DNA of 13,378 bases, from the UHGV virus genome UHGV-1734134; one strand, given 5' to 3'. Source of the DNA: a virus. Position numbers and translations under genes: made by a program. Shown here piece after piece: positions 2,763 through 12,681 of this stretch. Below the pieces are notes generated by a model that worked only from the letters and a program-made list of their open reading frames with translations, did no database searches and had not been told where the DNA came from. Positions within the stretch are counted from its first letter, which is position 1. Each line of letters begins with the position of its first letter.

Positions 2763-3651
2763 CGTGTTCACCCTCACGAACTTTCAGGTAGGTATTATCG
2801 TTAAGCAGGAAATCAAATCCCTTTTTGTGCCAGACGGTTCCGCGTTGATGGTTTGGGCGCTCTTCGAACATCCATCGGCAATTTTCGCCAACGTAGCTCA
2901 AATAATTTCTCCAGTCCTGCATCGTGAACCCATGCCCGTCAAGCTGGCGGGTTATCACTCCGGCTTTGCGCCAGAACGTTCGGATCTGGTTTTTACGCTT
3001 GTCATTCAGTGCGCGGATTCTTGGAGCTTCAGGAAGGATTTCGTGGTAAGCATCGACAACATCCTGACAGCTGACGGAAGGTTTTTTCTTGTCAGACTTT
3101 TTGTCTGCTGCGGTACTCTCTAATACGTCAGTATTAGAGATAATATTATTATATTCTTTATCTGTGGTAATTTGCTGGTAATCTGCTGGTACAGTATTGC
3201 TTGCAGGCATTGGTATTGCTGGCTTTGAGGTGGTAATTTGCTGGTAATCTGCTGGTACAAAATTTGACTGATAATCGTCATATTTCTCTACCGAGAAAAC
3301 TGAGAATTTACCGTGTGAAACCCAGTCAATCATGCCGAGTTTTTTGAACTTTCTAAGCAGGTACTGAACGCGATCTGGTTTGAGTCCTGTTTCAAACGCC
3401 AGAGAGTTTCTACCGCCAAGTAGCTTCCCTCTGCCTACCAGAATTTCTCCTGCGTCAGTCATTACATACTCAGGCGTATGCTTTGCTTTGAGGATTAAGT
3501 GAACCCACAGATGCGCAGCTTCTGCGTCCTTGTAAAACGGCACATCCATAATTTTACGGTGCAGCAAGGCATACCCCTTACCGCTGCTTTGATGCGGTTG
3601 TTGTAGCCTTCTGGCCTCTCTGGCTTCGGCTAGATTAGATATGTTACTCAT
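2752..3651 (-). CDS. Replication initiator protein, lambda O-like (replisome organiser)
   Basis: 299-aa ORF with AAGGAG upstream of the ATG. Sits immediately upstream of the helicase, as O/gene 18 does in lambdoid phages. Its central linker is encoded by the iteron repeats (tandem peptide [10 protein letters not shown]). Confidence 0.8.
3121..3259. repeat. Putative phage origin of replication: AT-rich block plus iterons inside the O-like gene
   Basis: Perfect 30-bp direct repeat GTGGTAATTTGCTGGTAATCTGCTGGTACA at 3164-3193 and 3230-3259, each built from TGGTAAT(N)TGC sub-repeats. Adjacent AT-rich stretch 3121-3160 (taatacgtcagtattagagataatattattatattc). Same architecture as ori-lambda inside O. 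Confidence 0.65.
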
Positions 3652-3790
3652 GACCTTTCTCCTTCTGCATCAGCTTCACTTTTTCCAACTCAGCCCGGAA
3701 TCGACCAGGCTGCTTGAAGCTGGACAGGAAGCGATCACGTAGTATGTGTTTGTGAATTTTGTCCTGGTAAGGACTGAGTTGTTTTGTCAT
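3644..3790 (-). CDS. Small ORF (48 aa) between cII and the O-like gene
   Basis: ATG at 3790 with GGGAG 6 nt upstream. Translation [48 protein letters not shown]. Stop overlaps the O-like start. Below the ORF-track size cut-off. Confidence 0.4.
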
Positions 3791-3824
3791 AATTACTCCC
3801 GTGGATTGATCCAGTCTTTCTACA

Positions 3825-4103
3825 TTAGGCCTCGAAGAATTCGCCGTTCTTCGGGGCTTTTTCTTTTGTCAGCATTCTGGCTACTTTCTTAGCCAGTTCC
3901 GCCAACTCCTCGTCTTCAACACCCCATTCAAGAACAGCCAGAAGCATTCCCATTTTTGGGATGAAGCTGTCTTTCCATCGCGAAATTTGCGATTCATTAA
4001 TCCCTAACGCGTCGGCAACATTTCGCTGGCCACGTACAGCAATTCGATTCAGGATGTTGCTTGTAATTGCATTCGCTTTCTTGCGAGTACTTGTAAGTTG
4101 CAT
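3825..4103 (-). CDS. cII: CII transcriptional activator
   Basis: From the internal ATG at 4103 the protein is 92 aa. It aligns closely with lambda CII as I recall it (e.g. [20 protein letters not shown]). The track's upstream start at 4163 would run into the nutR/tR1 region. Confidence 0.9.
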
Positions 4104-6514: not shown

Positions 6515-6571
6515 CAGGTAACTTAAGCGTATTTACTTTCGCAGCAAACCACTTATTTGAGAGGAATTAAT

Positions 6572-7195
6572 ATGTCATCAATCCGCTTAACTACGAGAAT
6601 GAAAGAGGAAATCGCTCGTAACGCTTTAATTAAGTCTGGGGTCTTCACTGAACTTGAAGAAGTAACAAAGTTAAAGAACCAGCTTGCACTTGACGCCAGA
6701 GTTATTGCGTTTGGCGGTAAAAAGAAAACTGAGGAAGTGGATCAGTTATCATCCAAGTTGGTAGCTATAAGTGAAGAACTTGAAAAGATGGGATGTTCAT
6801 TTTACTCATACGATGTTAGTTCTACTTCAATTTATCTGACTGTATCTGGCAGAAGGGTTGGATGGCATTCATATGGGAAAGACGGCAACGGCGAAGATAT
6901 ATTGCTCCCTACTCCGACCAAAGATAAATGCATGTTTAGCGCAGAACACGAAATAACAAAAAGGTTTGATGAAATCTGCGCATTGCAACAAAAACTTGAA
7001 GCCAAGAAAAAGGATATCGAATCAAATGTATGGGCTGCTTTGAACTCAGTCACAACAGTTAAGCGACTTATTGAAGTTTGGCCTGAAAGCAAAGAATTGC
7101 TACCAAAAGAAGCAGATAAAGCAAGTACAGCACTTCCTGCTTTACGGGTAGAAGATTTGAATAAGATGATTGGACTTCCTTCCGAGGCCGCATAG
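6572..7195 (+). CDS. Hypothetical protein (207 aa), AT-rich moron-like gene in the PL operon
   Basis: ATG at 6572 with GAGAGGAA upstream. No TM segment or signal peptide and no motif I recognise. Visibly lower GC than the flanking N and cIII/kil genes. Followed immediately by a terminator. Confidence 0.75.
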   Translation: MSSIRLTTRMKEEIARNALIKSGVFTELEEVTKLKNQLALDARVIAFGGKKKTEEVDQLSSKLVAISEELEKMGCSFYSYDVSSTSIYLTVSGRRVGWHSYGKDGNGEDILLPTPTKDKCMFSAEHEITKRFDEICALQQKLEAKKKDIESNVWAALNSVTTVKRLIEVWPESKELLPKEADKASTALPALRVEDLNKMIGLPSEAA

Positions 7196-7945: not shown

Positions 7946-8653
7946 ATGGATTTGAATAAATTCGATGAGCCATTCAGCCCTGAAGATATCGAATGGCGAA
8001 TACAGCAAAGCGGTAAAACACGCGATGGCAAAGTGTGGGCTATGGTGCTGGCTTATGTCACGAACCGGGCAATCATGAAACGCCTGGACGATGTTTGCGG
8101 CAAAGCAGGATGGCGCAATGAATACCGCGATATTCCCAACAACGGAGGCGTTGAATGCGGCATATCAATCAGGATTGATTCCGAATGGGTAACCAAATGG
8201 GATGCTGCTGAAAACACGCAGGTAGAAGCCGTCAAAGGTGGTCGTTCAGGTGCAATGAAGCGTGCTGCCGTTCAGTGGGGAATCGGTCGGTATCTGTATA
8301 ACCTTGAGGAAGGTTTCGCACAAACATCTCTCGATAAAAAGCAGGGATGGCACAGGGCAAAACTCAAGGATGGAACAGGATTTTACTGGCTCCCTCCATC
8401 GCTGCCGGGATGGGCAATCCCAGCATCAGATAACAAACCATCACCAGAAAATACCAACCAGAAATCTCCATCGGTTGACTGCGAGCAAATCCTGAAAGAC
8501 TTCAGCGATTATGCGTCAACAGAAACTGACAAGAAAAAACTCATCGAGCGTTATCAGCGTGACTGGCAATTAATGGCTGGCAACGAGGAGGCGCAGGCTA
8601 AATGCGTTCAGGTAATGAACATCAGAGTTAACGAACTAAAACAGGCGGCATAA
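7946..8653 (+). CDS. Single-strand annealing protein, Rad52/Rad22 (Sak-like) family
   Basis: 235 aa with GAGGTG upstream. The core ...GGVECGISIRID...GGRSGAMKRAAVQWGIGRYLYNL is characteristic of the Rad52/22 annealase fold. Sits in the position lambda uses for bet. Confidence 0.75.
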   Translation: MDLNKFDEPFSPEDIEWRIQQSGKTRDGKVWAMVLAYVTNRAIMKRLDDVCGKAGWRNEYRDIPNNGGVECGISIRIDSEWVTKWDAAENTQVEAVKGGRSGAMKRAAVQWGIGRYLYNLEEGFAQTSLDKKQGWHRAKLKDGTGFYWLPPSLPGWAIPASDNKPSPENTNQKSPSVDCEQILKDFSDYASTETDKKKLIERYQRDWQLMAGNEEAQAKCVQVMNIRVNELKQAA

Positions 8654-9121
8654 ATGTCTCACTTGGACGGAATTATTAAAAGATTCGAGTCCAGCTACAA
8701 AGTTAATGAAACAACAGGTTGCTGGGAGTCTACCTATTCAAAAAACAAAGGAGGATACACAAAATTTGTAGCCTTTGGCGTAACAATGCTTTCTCATCGG
8801 GTTGCTTTTGAGCTTTATCACTCCCCCATTCCATCTGGGAAGATGGTTTGCCACAAATGCGATAACCCATGCTGCGTTAATCCTGAACATCTCTTTTTAG
8901 GTAGCGCGCAAGAAAACATGGACGACAAGATAGCAAAAGGAAGGCATCGTGGAGCCAAAAAAGGTCATGCTCATCATGGTGCAAAATTAACAGAGTGGCA
9001 GGTTATAGAAATTAGGAAAAGACTCTCTGAAAAAGAGAGTCAGTACAAGATAGCAAAAGACATGGGTGTATCTCAATCAATTATAAGCAACATAAAAATT
9101 GGCAAGAGGTGGAGCAAATGA
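8654..9121 (+). CDS. HNH homing-type endonuclease
   Basis: 155 aa. HNH motif [15 protein letters not shown]..., with a C-terminal basic helix-rich region ([13 protein letters not shown]) typical of the DNA-binding tail of HNH homing endonucleases. Lower GC. Wedged between the annealase and SSB with abutting start and stop codons. Confidence 0.8.
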
Positions 9122-9633
9122 GTTCTCGCGGGATAAATAAGGTGATCATTATTGGTCGCCTTGGGCATGATCCAGAAATCAGATATTCACCATCAGGAAC
9201 GGCATTTGCAAACCTTACAGTTGCTACGTCAGAACAATGGCGTGATAAGCAAACTGGAGAGCAAAAGGAGCATACGGAGTGGCACCGTGTGGTAATGAGC
9301 GGGAAACTGGCAGAAATTGCCAGCGAGTATCTGCGGAAAGGCTCAGAGGTTTATCTTGAAGGCAAATTGCGGACAAGAAAATGGCAGGATCAAAGTGGAC
9401 AGGATCGGTTCACTACCGAAGTCATCGTAGGCGTTGGTGGAACCATGCAAATGCTTGGTGGCAAGCAAGGAGGAAATGAACAGTCTTCTCCTCAGCGAAA
9501 TAACGGTCAGCAACAAAGACAGCAACCTCAGCAGCAGGGAAATCACAGCGAACCACCTATGGAGTTTGACGACGATATACCATTTGCGCCAGTAACTCTC
9601 CCCTTCCCTCGTCACGCTATTCACGCAATTTAA
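9118..9633 (+). CDS. ssb: Single-stranded DNA-binding protein (SSB) with an extended C-terminus
   Basis: ATG at 9118 overlaps the HNH stop (ATGA). The OB-fold N-terminus ([20 protein letters not shown]...TEWHRVV...) and Gly/Gln-rich linker are typical. The canonical DDDIPF tail is followed by 15 more residues ([15 protein letters not shown]). Confidence 0.9.
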
Positions 9634-9646
9634 TCAGGAGAAAATC

Positions 9647-9940
9647 ATGCCAGCGCCTCTGTATGGTGCGGACGACGTGCGCCGCTGTTCCGGCAATTCC
9701 GTATCGGAGGTGCTGGATAAATTCAGAAAAAACTACGACCTGATAATGTCGCTACCGCAGGAAACGAAAGAGGAAAAGGAATTTCGTCATTGTATATGGC
9801 TTGCAGAGAAAGAAGAACGCGAGCGAATTTACCAGACATCAATCCGACCATTCCGCAAAGCCACATATACCCACTTCCCTGAAATTGACCCGCGCCTGCG
9901 TAATTACCGCTCACGCTATGGCGCTATCAGTAATGACTGA
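9647..9940 (+). CDS. Hypothetical phage protein (97 aa)
   Basis: ATG with CAGGAG upstream. No recognisable motif. Confidence 0.6.
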
Positions 9941-11185: not shown

Positions 11186-11395
11186 ATGGCTATTGCCGCA
11201 AGTTACACCATGCATCTCTATTGTGACTGCCGCCAGTGTACGGAAGGTGTATATCCAGTGCCAGACTTCGGTGAGTATATCGGTACGTCATGGTCTGGTT
11301 GTGCAAAAGAGGCGCGCAAGGATGGCTGGCGAATAAGCAAAGACAAAACGCGTGCTTTTGCGCCCGGGCATAAAGTTTTGAGGATTAACAAATGA
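11186..11395 (+). CDS. Small Cys-rich protein (69 aa), possible zinc-binding
   Basis: ATG at 11186 with AAGGAG upstream. CDCRQC...C cysteine cluster. The track's longer out-of-register ORF from 10850 is unlikely. Confidence 0.55.
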   Translation: MAIAASYTMHLYCDCRQCTEGVYPVPDFGEYIGTSWSGCAKEARKDGWRISKDKTRAFAPGHKVLRINK

Positions 11396-12681
11396 CCACT
11401 ATTACCAGAGAACAAGCTCTGAAAATTATTGAGGCAGCCGATGAGGTTATTAGTGCGCTTGCCGGAACTAACGAGGATGTTCACCCTGGTAGCGATAACA
11501 TGCTACGCCTGTGGGATGACCTGAATGACCGTTACGCGCCGCCGGAAGTTGTGCGTGAGCTGGCACGGATTGCACTGGCCTCGCTTGAGGCAGAGCCAGT
11601 TGGTGCATTCCACATTGCTGAACAGCAAGTTGACGGCACAAGTGACTATCTCAAGGATGGAGAATGGCCTATTGATAATGGGATTATTGAAGCCTACGCC
11701 GCTCCGCCAGTACCGGTAGTACCTGCTGCATTACCTGAGAACGACGATGAGGACGGGCATGACATTGATTATCTTGAGCCATCTGAAGTTTACGCGCTTG
11801 GGCGAACAGCTGGCTGGAACGCCTGCCGCGCCGCCATGCTTCAGTCCGGAAACTTTCGGGAAAATAAGAATTCGTCAACCAATAATTTTCGGGAAATCGC
11901 GGAAACGTCAACCAACTATCCGGTAATTCCTAGTGAGGTGTTGTCCGCAATCCTGAAGGTTGCCAAGATTCGTGCCGATTTCGATGATTTTGACGGCGAC
12001 AGACGAGGTATCGGTGATTGTCTGGATGAGGCTGAGCAAGAGCTTATCGTTACCATTAACAAATATGCCAGTCAGTTGGCAGCAGAACCGATAGCGACTA
12101 ATGACGTTCGAGAGCAGCAGACAGCCGTTCCGCCAGTTCCGGAAATACAGGCTGATGTCGGGCAGTCAATTGAAAAACTCAAACGGAAATTAGTGGAATG
12201 CAATCGCTATAACTACTGCGCAGATGCAGTTAAGGGCGTTGAGTATGCCTGCCACGCTGCCATGCTTCAGGGTAGCCAACCTGTAAGCCAAACTTACAAG
12301 TTTCCAGTTAATACACCTTGCCAGGATGCGCCAGCCCATATCTGGCTGCAAACAGCTGGAGTATGGCCAGAAGATGGCGAGTTAAGCGAATTAACGTGGT
12401 GCAGCCACAATCAGCACCATGATGACACGCTATATGTTCGAGCTGACTTGGTAAATGGCAATTCTCCGGTAACTCCGGATGGTTGGATAAGCTGTAGTGA
12501 TCGAATGCCGGAAGACACCAAAATGTTACTGGCATTTAGTCAAGGTGAAATCGTGGCAGCATATTGGAACTGGGTTGTAAATCCAATTGATTACAAAAAA
12601 TATAGAGCTTTCACGTATTTATCAGGAAATATCTTGGATGACGTAACTCACTGGATGCCGCTACCAGAGCCTCCACTTTGA
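11392..12681 (+). CDS. DUF551 domain-containing phage protein (429 aa)
   Basis: The C-terminus WISCSDRMPEDTKMLLAF...VTHWMPLPEPP matches the DUF551 signature as I recall it. ATGA overlap with the upstream gene. Contains an internal repeated motif (see findings). Confidence 0.8.
   Translation: MTTITREQALKIIEAADEVISALAGTNEDVHPGSDNMLRLWDDLNDRYAPPEVVRELARIALASLEAEPVGAFHIAEQQVDGTSDYLKDGEWPIDNGIIEAYAAPPVPVVPAALPENDDEDGHDIDYLEPSEVYALGRTAGWNACRAAMLQSGNFRENKNSSTNNFREIAETSTNYPVIPSEVLSAILKVAKIRADFDDFDGDRRGIGDCLDEAEQELIVTINKYASQLAAEPIATNDVREQQTAVPPVPEIQADVGQSIEKLKRKLVECNRYNYCADAVKGVEYACHAAMLQGSQPVSQTYKFPVNTPCQDAPAHIWLQTAGVWPEDGELSELTWCSHNQHHDDTLYVRADLVNGNSPVTPDGWISCSDRMPEDTKMLLAFSQGEIVAAYWNWVVNPIDYKKYRAFTYLSGNILDDVTHWMPLPEPPL

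What the first reader, a model, noticed from the sequence alone, without database searches (positions are those of the whole stretch)
9118..9633. Phage SSB whose DDDIPF tail is internal, with a 15-residue extension after it
Bacterial and most phage SSBs end exactly at ...DDDIPF, and the free C-terminal Phe carboxylate is part of the docking site for partner proteins. Here the reading frame continues as [21 protein letters not shown] before the stop. This would mask the canonical tip, which could alter or block host-partner interactions, or it could be a sequencing or frameshift artefact.
Basis: partly seen in the sequence, partly recalled or inferred. Interest (0 to 1): 0.4.

Follow-up and report, generated by a model that had tools for sequence, protein, structure and literature searches.

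The report
Conserved cap on phage SSB tail
This prophage's single-stranded-DNA-binding protein carries a conserved 15-residue peptide after the normally terminal DDDIPF docking tip; the same kind of cap sits on many phage and plasmid SSBs, so it is a real, selected and apparently undescribed feature whose function is still unknown.

Summary
The ssb gene (9118-9633, +) encodes 171 aa ending ...[27 protein letters not shown].

It is not an artefact. 117 of the 120 best homologous protein clusters carry the same 15 residues. So do 293 of 5426 complete E. coli genomes.

It is not neutral. The extension is as conserved as the OB fold (0.35 vs 0.32 bits) and far more than the linker (1.37 bits).

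Tip plus cap behave as one portable, disordered C-terminal module. It sits on at least seven unrelated phage SSB-like families, on a phage-plasmid and on IncN conjugative plasmids. Other cap classes occur in prophages of Pseudomonas, Rhizobiales and others. In a sample of 120 viral FDDDIPF tails, 35 were capped.

Cap-less variants exist naturally. In Sf6-type phages a homing-endonuclease gene sits exactly at the IPF|AP junction and supplies a stop codon after Phe.

The function was not determined. The likeliest reading is that the cap removes the free Phe carboxylate that host partner pockets require and adds contacts of its own, which changes which proteins can dock. A pure mask, a degron or a removable pro-peptide remain possible. 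I found no paper describing it.

The parts
9118..9633 (+). ssb gene, 171 codons plus TAA
   Evidence: Translation. Pfam SSB match. RefSeq annotation of the 99.4% identical locus at the same length.
9133..9432 (+). OB-fold ssDNA-binding core (residues 6-105)
   Evidence: PF00436, E 3e-38. phmmer to E. coli/Klebsiella SSB structures, E about 1e-64.
9454..9549 (+). Gln/Gly/Pro-rich disordered linker (residues 113-144)
   Evidence: Read directly from the sequence. Highest variability among homologues, 1.37 bits. AF2 pLDDT below 50 from residue 106.
9550..9585 (+). Host-type acidic tip [12 protein letters not shown] (residues 145-156), here internal
   Evidence: Entropy 0.23 bits over 117 sequences. 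pN/pS 0.025.
9586..9630 (+). 15-residue cap [15 protein letters not shown] (residues 157-171)
   Evidence: Present in 117 of the 120 best clusters. Entropy 0.35 bits; L161, F163, R165 and H166 invariant. Predicted disordered. Also an island of near-identical DNA, pi 0.015-0.05, between diverse flanks.
8654..9121 (+). Free-standing HNH endonuclease gene directly upstream; its stop overlaps the ssb start (ATGA)
   Evidence: Pfam HNH_3, E 1e-13. phrog_59 and other HNH families. Absent from ECP1/HZ41, whose similarity starts at window 9134.
7946..8653 (+). Rad52-type single-strand annealing protein, the recombination partner gene of the module
   Evidence: Pfam Rad52_Rad22, E 7e-26.
9647..9940 (+). 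abc2 anti-RecBCD gene, starting 13 nt after the ssb stop
   Evidence: Pfam Anti-RecBCD_p2, E 9e-64. In related phages a 182-aa exonuclease gene takes this position right after the same TAA.

Best explanation
The 15 codons are a genuine, selectively maintained part of ssb. Together with the acidic tip they form one intrinsically disordered C-terminal docking motif: DDIPF-AP-[IV]-[GT]-L-x-[FY]-x-R-x-x-I-[HY]-x-[ILM]-COOH. Mobile elements of enteric and Vibrio-type hosts attach this motif to their SSBs and SSB-like proteins.

Shown here: the cap is conserved, is always terminal, is always joined to IPF, is portable between unrelated N-terminal domains, and occurs on phages, prophages, a phage-plasmid and IncN plasmids.

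Inferred mechanism: putting Phe156 into a peptide bond removes the alpha-carboxylate that the canonical partner pockets need (ExoI, RecQ, chi, PriA, RecO and others). The phage SSB therefore cannot be read like host SSB. The conserved cap residues (a second Leu-Pro-Phe, Arg165, His166/169 and a hydrophobic C-terminus) supply replacement contacts. The tail then docks to a narrower or different set of proteins than the host tip does. The likeliest target is a host genome-maintenance protein that differs between host lineages.

The identity of the partner is unknown.
For: 1. Recurrence. 117 of the 120 best 90%-identity clusters carry the cap. 293 of 5426 complete E. coli genomes have the contiguous tip+cap DNA.

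2. Purifying selection on the protein. Column entropy is 0.32 bits for the OB fold, 1.37 for the linker, 0.23 for the tip and 0.35 for the cap. Remote phages keep the residues with different codons (JK004, KB57, V039C).

3. The tip stays host-identical next to the cap (pN/pS 0.025), so the tip is still in use.

4. Portability. A tail-only profile found 62 representatives at 50% identity. Of the 24 longer ones scanned, hits fell in phrog_44, 2544, 4477, 32668, 9002, 743 and 3284, and in Pfam DUF669.

5. One unit. All 25 genuine C-terminal APIGLQYP tails in IMG/VR are preceded by [DE]IPF.

6. The same cap class occurs on IncN plasmid pTR4 (no phage genes nearby) and on a phage-plasmid. This argues against a partner encoded only by P22-like phages.

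7. Other host lineages have other cap classes: Pseudomonas APLHHLAGA, Rhizobiales APEWR.

8. AF2 predicts no autonomous structure for the tail, as expected for a short linear motif.

9. The alpha-carboxyl requirement of known pockets is stated in PMC3159472. SSB with a blocked C-terminus is dominant negative (PMC7293020).
Against: No binding partner was identified and no interaction was tested. Complexes could not be modelled with these tools.

Cap-less SSBs occur in closely related, viable phages (Sf6, 103203_sal5). Orthologues differ too: Bas52_0087 is free while KB57 gp040 is capped. The cap is therefore dispensable in at least some settings.

Cap sequences differ widely between host lineages, from 5 to 16 aa. 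That would also fit a non-specific mask or a generic degron.

Within P22-like and lambdoid phages the cap codons are nearly invariant even at synonymous sites (pS 0.07 vs 0.48). Part of the conservation in that group is therefore at DNA level (mosaic boundary or homing-related conversion), not protein level.
Confidence: 0.45

Rival explanations
1. Pure mask (a 'private' or dominant-negative SSB). The only job of the cap is to deny the free Phe carboxylate. ssDNA coated by the element's SSB then does not recruit host nucleases, helicases or RecOR. Alternatively, mixed tetramers poison the host SSB hub. No new partner is involved.
For: Known pockets need the alpha-carboxyl group (PMC3159472). 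C-terminally blocked SSB is dominant negative (PMC7293020). Caps vary greatly in length and sequence across host lineages. The OB core is very close to E. coli SSB, so heterotetramers are conceivable.
Against: A mask needs no particular sequence, yet L161, F163, R165 and H166 are invariant in 117 sequences. The APIGLQY core is shared by unrelated protein families. If nothing reads the tip, its host-identical conservation (0.23 bits) is unexplained.
Confidence: 0.2
2. Degron or pro-peptide. The hydrophobic C-terminus (...RHAIHAI; elsewhere ...HCI, ...NCM, ...LAGA) is recognised by a host protease such as ClpXP, Lon or FtsH. This would either make the element's SSB short-lived or trim the tail so that IPF-COOH or a tail-less SSB results.
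For: The cap is always terminal and ends in small-then-hydrophobic residues. From my own recall, this resembles the MuA-type RRKKAI and ssrA LAA signals. It sits on a long disordered linker. Many lambdoid early proteins and plasmid leading-region products act transiently (general knowledge). Homing-endonuclease variants keep a stop exactly after IPF, which shows the free-tip form is functional.
Against: No protease site or adaptor motif was demonstrated. I know of no cytoplasmic enzyme that cleaves precisely at F|AP. The most conserved part of the cap is the N-terminal AP-[IV]-G-L-x-Y next to IPF rather than the extreme C-terminus. One extra residue after the hydrophobic end is tolerated (...YAIS...NCMG).
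Confidence: 0.15
3. No protein function. The 45 nt are conserved as DNA, either as a mosaic boundary sequence or as the target or flank of the homing endonuclease that inserts at IPF|AP. The extra residues are a tolerated read-through.
For: Among 52 P22-like and lambdoid alleles, synonymous diversity is 0.07 in the cap against 0.48 elsewhere. There is a sharp nucleotide-diversity trough at 9584-9628 between variable flanks. Alternative modules (abc2 or an exonuclease gene) begin right after the TAA. Endonuclease genes insert at this junction.
Against: Remote phages and plasmids keep the amino acids with different codons and different neighbours. The motif is shared by unrelated protein families. 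No RNA structure, promoter or Rfam match lies in the stretch. The endonuclease family profile does not include the cap residues.
Confidence: 0.07
4. Sequencing or frameshift artefact that hides a stop after DDDIPF.
For: None beyond the rarity of such tails in textbook SSBs.
Against: The same reading frame appears in hundreds of independent genomes and phage isolates.
Confidence: 0.01

Closest known systems
E. coli SSB C-terminal tip (SSB-Ct, ...PPMDFDDDIPF-COOH), the docking hub for ExoI, RecQ, chi, PriA, RecO, DnaG and others
   Same: Same OB core family, same disordered linker architecture and an almost identical acidic tip, [12 protein letters not shown].
   Different: The tip is not terminal. 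Phe156 is followed by 15 conserved residues, so the alpha-carboxylate that known pockets bind (PMC3159472) is absent.
SSBs with a free tip in related phages: Sf6 gp27, Salmonella phage 103203_sal5
   Same: Same gene, same genomic position in the recombination module, and 93-95% identical over the shared part.
   Different: Those proteins end at ...D(S)DIPF* or ...DDEIPF*, because a homing-endonuclease gene follows and supplies the stop. In Sf6 the old cap codons are read as the last 14 residues of the endonuclease.
Phage HK620 SSB and its annealase Sak4 (PMC5928155)
   Same: A phage SSB next to a single-strand annealing protein and abc2. Its last six residues (NDYPPF) are needed to recruit the cognate annealase.
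   Different: HK620 SSB is a distant SSB type whose tip is terminal. No cap is present. Here the annealase is Rad52-type.
Bas52_0087, the SSB-like protein of a Vequintavirus that is required to trigger the DRT10 defence system (bioRxiv 10.64898/2026.04.29.721553)
   Same: A phage SSB-like protein with an FDDDIPF tail, linked genetically to host ExoI. Its 39%-identical homologue in Klebsiella phage KB57 carries the same cap family as the window.
   Different: Bas52_0087 itself ends at a free ...FDDDIPF*. Its N-terminal fold is unrelated to PF00436.
Free-standing homing endonuclease genes that insert into conserved phage genes (the general class known from T-even and other phages; from my own knowledge)
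   Same: HNH or CapR-domain genes sit precisely in the most conserved DNA of ssb. They carry a recoded copy of the tip plus a stop codon.
   Different: In the window the junction is uninterrupted. Its HNH gene lies upstream of ssb instead.

Membership tests
Bacterial-type OB-fold SSB (Pfam PF00436) | N-terminal OB-fold ssDNA-binding domain | tested here: met
   PF00436 at residues 6-105, E 3e-38. E about 1e-64 to E. coli/Klebsiella SSB structures.
Bacterial-type OB-fold SSB (Pfam PF00436) | Disordered Gly/Gln/Pro-rich linker followed by an acidic tip | tested here: met
   Residues 113-156 read directly from the sequence. AF2 pLDDT below 50 from residue 106.
Bacterial-type OB-fold SSB (Pfam PF00436) | Homotetramer formation and ssDNA binding | not testable with these tools
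   Only inferred from the high similarity of the OB core to E. coli SSB.
Canonical SSB-Ct docking tip | Sequence D-F-D-D-D-I-P-F | tested here: met
   EFDDDIPF at residues 149-156.
Canonical SSB-Ct docking tip | Phe is the last residue, with a free alpha-carboxylate for the basic residue of partner pockets | tested here: not met
   Fifteen more codons follow before TAA. The requirement is stated in PMC3159472.
Canonical SSB-Ct docking tip | Binds ExoI, chi, PriA, RecO, RecQ and the like | not testable with these tools
   No binding assay or complex prediction was possible.
Capped SSB tail of mobile elements (the grouping proposed here) | [DE]-[IV]-P-F followed by a 14-16 aa cap of the form A-P-[IV]-[GT]-L-x-[FYH]...hydrophobic end, at the very C-terminus | tested here: met
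   The window tail fits the consensus derived from 83 unique tails. All 25 genuine pattern hits in IMG/VR have the same layout.
Capped SSB tail of mobile elements (the grouping proposed here) | Encoded on a mobile element (phage, prophage, phage-plasmid or plasmid) | tested here: met
   The window is a lambdoid or P22-like early region: CI, CII, N, DnaB-like helicase, Rad52, abc2. Homologues lie in prophages and plasmids.
Gene split by a homing endonuclease at the tip (Sf6 type) | Stop codon right after IPF, followed by an endonuclease ORF | tested here: not met
   The junction is contiguous in the window. Sf6-type junctions occur in 99 E. coli genomes, against 293 with the contiguous form.
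Beta-clamp-binding motif (QL[SD]LF / QLxLxL; consensus from my own recall) | Gln at position 1, with hydrophobic residues at positions 2, 4 and 5 or 6 | tested here: inconclusive
   PVTLPF and PIGLQY fit the x-hydrophobic-x-L-x-aromatic shape but lack the Gln. The LGHGYG..., Pseudomonas and Rhizobiales cap classes do not fit. Inspection only.
C-terminal degradation tags (ssrA LAA, MuA RRKKAI type; from my own recall) | Non-polar last residues with a free carboxylate, recognised by ClpX or other AAA+ proteases | tested here: inconclusive
   The cap ends in ...HAI...YVI...HCI...NCM. No stability data exist.

The most novel reading that the evidence does not exclude
Capped SSB tails are a widespread, previously unrecognised class of short linear motif. 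Phages and plasmids would use them to seize or disable one specific host genome-maintenance protein, for example an ssDNA exonuclease such as ExoI, a RecA loader or a replisome component. The host-type tip would act as the address, and a host-lineage-specific cap as the high-affinity or inhibitory part. That would make them a new kind of host-takeover or counter-defence device.
Probability: 0.3. Interest if true: 0.8.

Novelty: new variant of a known kind. Interest (0 to 1): 0.6.

Why it matters
The free C-terminal Phe of SSB is treated as the universal handle by which bacterial genome-maintenance enzymes find ssDNA. It is also a drug target.

In the sample taken here, about three in ten viral FDDDIPF tails hide that handle behind a short conserved peptide. 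If that holds generally, mobile elements have a systematic way of rewiring or evading the SSB interaction hub.

This bears on four areas:
- recombineering, where annealase and SSB must be compatible;
- plasmid establishment;
- how defence systems sense phage SSBs;
- the design of SSB-Ct mimetic inhibitors.

Nature has also supplied matched capped and uncapped alleles in near-isogenic phages, so the question is directly testable.

Tried and rejected
1. Artefact: rejected on recurrence.

2. Cap as the native C-terminus of the Sf6-type endonuclease: rejected. The endonuclease family profile ends at residue 143 of 159, and the cap occurs in many genomes with no endonuclease nearby.

3. RNA or regulatory element in the 45 nt: no stable fold (z = 0.46), no promoter or terminator, no Rfam match.

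4. Autonomous fold of the tail: AF2 on the whole protein (pLDDT below 45 in the tail) and on the tail alone with a 70-sequence alignment (no secondary structure) gave nothing.

5. Solved structures: no PDB chain contains the cap.

6. Literature: full-text searches for the peptide strings found no relevant paper. Concept searches found only canonical-tip work.

7. Link to the DRT10 trigger: Bas52_0087 turned out to have a free tip, so that study says nothing about the cap.

8. Cap tied to one annealase family: not supported. Capped genes follow YqaJ, Rad52, Sak4-like or ERF genes, and the IncN plasmid pTR4 shows none near its ssb.

9. 'Free-standing tail' mini-proteins (P0048 and similar): these are remnants of an SSB-like gene split by a CapR-domain gene, not independent decoys.

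10. The first protein search, with a 44-aa profile, returned only short fragments because candidates are limited by length. One tblastn query returned nothing, perhaps because of the low-complexity filter.

Full report
**Observation.** Window 9118-9633 (+) is an intact 171-codon ORF. It ends ...[31 protein letters not shown], then TAA.
- Residues 6-105 are a Pfam SSB domain (E 3e-38).
- The OB core matches E. coli and Klebsiella SSB structures at E about 1e-64. The match to E. coli SSB stops at query residue 156, which aligns with the last residue of that chain.
- The acidic tip (9550-9585) is therefore host-like but internal. Fifteen further codons (9586-9630) follow.

**Context.** The window is the immunity and early-left region of a lambdoid or P22-like prophage.
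- It encodes a DnaB-like helicase, CII, a CI-type S24 repressor and N.
- The recombination module follows: Rad52-type annealase (7946-8653), an HNH endonuclease (8654-9121, whose stop overlaps the ssb start), ssb, and the anti-RecBCD gene abc2 (9647-9940).
- The nearest relative is a prophage in E. coli N9 (99.4% identity). RefSeq annotates its ssb at the same length.

**Not an artefact, not rare.**
- The same tail is present in phages ECP1, HZ41, HK75, mEpX2, mEp235, epsilon34, g341c and CP-1639.
- 117 of the 120 best 90%-identity clusters found with the whole protein carry it. They come from E. coli, Klebsiella, Citrobacter, Salmonella and Enterobacter.
- The contiguous tip+cap DNA is present in 293 of 5426 complete E. 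coli genomes.
- The Klebsiella homologues checked lie in lambdoid prophages.

**Not neutral.**
- Across 117 sequences that are 73-95% identical overall, column entropy is 0.32 bits in the OB fold, 1.37 in the linker, 0.23 in the tip and 0.35 in the cap. L161, F163, R165 and H166 are invariant.
- Remote elements keep the peptide with different codons. Examples are Cronobacter phage JK004 ([15 protein letters not shown]), Vibrio phage V039C (APVGLQYGRNLLHVI) and Klebsiella phage KB57 gp040 (APIGLPYGRNFIHCI).

**A portable composite module.**
- A profile of the last 32 residues was searched against 1.84 billion representative proteins. It found 62 representatives.
- Together with the earlier hits these give 83 unique tails. 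Caps are almost always 14 (24 tails), 15 (45) or 16 (13) residues long, and always at the very C-terminus.
- The consensus is A-P-[IV]-G-L-[QPM]-[YH]-x-[R/x]-x-x-[IL]-[HYN]-x-[IML].
- Of the 24 longer representatives scanned, hits fell in canonical SSB (phrog_44) and in phrog_2544, 4477, 32668, 9002, 743 and 3284, and in Pfam DUF669.
- A DNA pattern for APIGLQYP, with no constraint upstream, gave 34 hits in IMG/VR. All 25 hits that are C-terminal tails are preceded by [DE]IPF. Eight are chance internal matches, and one is a frameshifted ssb.
- Tip and cap are therefore one unit.
- AF2 gives the tail no structure, either in the full protein or alone with a 70-sequence alignment. This fits a short linear motif that folds on a partner.

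**Beyond phages and beyond enterics.**
- The same cap class is on the SSB of IncN conjugative plasmids. pTR4 ends ...[25 protein letters not shown], next to antirestriction genes.
- It is also on a non-mobilisable Salmonella plasmid, probably a phage-plasmid.
- A scan of one genome per species for DDIPFAP found other cap classes in SSB genes with phage-like neighbours: Pseudomonas (APLHHLAGA, APMHHLAGV), Rhizobiales and Devosia (APEWR, APETRG), Paenalcaligenes (APLLARCEYVI) and others.
- In an arbitrary sample of 120 viral contigs encoding FDDDIPF, 84 end at Phe, 35 carry a 1-24 residue extension and 1 is internal.

**Natural cap-less alleles and homing endonucleases.**
- In Sf6, the SSB ends ...NFDDSDIPF*. 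The same two-piece match pattern in IME10, N7 and Bas106, and the Sf6-type junction DNA in 99 E. coli genomes, point to the same arrangement.
- An HNH endonuclease gene follows. Its last 14 residues are [14 protein letters not shown], the old cap.
- Homology with the window resumes exactly at codon P158. Upstream, the endonuclease cassette brings a recoded copy of the tip.
- The endonuclease family profile ends before the cap residues.
- Salmonella phage 103203_sal5 has a different HNH gene after ...DDEIPF* and has lost the cap.
- A metagenomic phage has a CapR-domain gene between an SSB-like protein ending DFDDIPF* and a 79-aa remnant that carries a second tip plus cap.
- At least three endonuclease-like gene types have therefore landed at or next to the IPF|cap junction, each leaving a stop right after Phe.
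- The free-tip form is thus functional and the cap is an optional add-on. The same holds for orthologues: Bas52_0087 is free and KB57 gp040 is capped.

**A DNA-level peculiarity.**
- Among 52 distinct P22-like and lambdoid alleles, synonymous diversity is 0.48 in the OB fold, linker and tip but 0.07 in the cap.
- Nucleotide diversity drops to 0.015-0.05 at 9584-9628, between variable flanks.
- Two alternative modules, abc2 or a 182-aa exonuclease gene, start right after the TAA.
- In this phage group the cap codons therefore also act as a mosaic boundary or conversion tract.
- No RNA structure, promoter or Rfam family explains this.
- It does not explain the amino-acid conservation in remote elements.

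**Mechanism.**
- Established knowledge: SSB-Ct pockets hold the Phe side chain and its alpha-carboxyl group (PMC3159472). A C-terminal GFP fusion of SSB is dominant negative (PMC7293020). The capped tail therefore cannot dock in the canonical way.
- The tip stays host-identical beside the cap, and the cap is conserved across unrelated carriers. I therefore favour a composite motif with altered partner specificity (0.45).
- The rivals are a pure mask (0.2), a degron or pro-peptide (0.15) and a DNA-only explanation (0.07).
- The partner is probably host-encoded. The same cap class occurs on IncN plasmids and on phages with different annealase types, and cap classes appear to follow host lineage.
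- Resemblances to beta-clamp-binding and ClpX-type signals rest on inspection only and do not generalise to the other cap classes.

**Comparison and novelty.**
- The protein is a member of the OB-fold SSB family but fails the defining 'terminal Phe' feature of the canonical SSB-Ct.
- The literature searched has no description of the cap.
- I rate it a new variant of a known kind, with moderate to high interest, because it is widespread, contradicts a textbook rule and is easy to test.

Noticed in passing
window 8654-9121 (+): A free-standing HNH_3 endonuclease gene is wedged between the Rad52-type annealase gene and ssb, with its stop overlapping the ssb start (ATGA). ECP1 and HZ41 lack it; their similarity to the window begins at 9134. 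A similar HNH_3 gene sits downstream of ssb in Salmonella phage 103203_sal5.
   Followed up: partly
L002 (Sf6) 2985-3947; junction at 3440-3470 and 3895-3947: Sf6 gp26, an HNH endonuclease gene, is inserted exactly between the IPF codons and the cap codons of ssb. It brings a recoded tip (DDSDIPF) plus a stop, and it ends by reading the old cap in frame. The same junction is present in 99 complete E. coli genomes.
   Followed up: yes
window 9584-9633, compared across L006-L085: The 45 cap nucleotides form an island of near-identical DNA (pi 0.015-0.05) between highly diverse ssb alleles upstream and two alternative downstream modules (abc2, or a 182-aa DnaQ-like exonuclease gene) that begin right after the TAA. 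It looks like a mosaic boundary or a homing co-conversion tract.
   Followed up: partly
L088 402-2465; L089 4157-6225: In metagenomic contigs of DNA-polymerase-A-encoding phages, an SSB-like protein ends DFDDIPF*. It is followed by a CapR-domain, zinc-finger gene (split in two in L089). Then comes a 74-79 aa ORF carrying a second tip plus cap (DWDSDIPFAPIGLQYPQLLWCM). This looks like another mobile-gene insertion that duplicated the tail.
   Followed up: partly
L126 3982-5208 (phage Bas52/RudolfGeigy) vs L004 1364-2584 (phage KB57): Bas52_0087, the SSB-like protein needed to trigger DRT10, ends at a free FDDDIPF. Its 39%-identical Klebsiella-phage homologue carries the 15-aa cap. Capped and uncapped orthologues could respond differently to that defence system.
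   Followed up: partly
L132, L135, L183, L221 (Pseudomonas); L143, L169, L191, L202 (Rhizobiales, Devosia and a related alphaproteobacterium); L137 (Paenalcaligenes): SSB genes with phage-like neighbours in other Proteobacteria carry different, shorter caps after DDDIPF: APLHHLAGA, APMHHLAGV, APEWR(G), APETRG, APLLARCEYVI. Further classes turned up in viral contigs, such as ...CWRAM and ...PYRGARSLLI.
   Followed up: partly
L086 2005-3353 (IncN plasmid pTR4): The capped ssb of this IncN plasmid lies next to a convergent SprT-family zinc metalloprotease gene and to antirestriction genes (an antirestriction protein and ArdR). The nearby protease may be a coincidence.
   Followed up: no
L128 7461-7718 (Klebsiella prophage): Prophages carrying the capped ssb also encode a homologue of the DNA polymerase III theta subunit (PF06440), and a DnaQ-like exonuclease right after ssb. 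Several genes in this operon therefore touch the host replisome.
   Followed up: no
window 6557-7195 (+): A 212-aa protein matches Pfam Nmad5 (nucleotide modification associated domain 5) over its full length (E 1e-71). It lies between N and the kil/cIII region. The nearest E. coli prophage has superinfection-exclusion and TolA-like genes at this position.
   Followed up: no
window 11392-12681 (+): A 429-aa ORF has a recognisable domain (DUF551) only in its last 65 residues. The large N-terminal part has no Pfam match.
   Followed up: no
L123 241-901: An IMG/VR contig has an ssb in which the cap (APIGLQYPALLMCM) is out of frame after DDDIP. This is either a frameshifted pseudogene or an assembly error.
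   Followed up: partly
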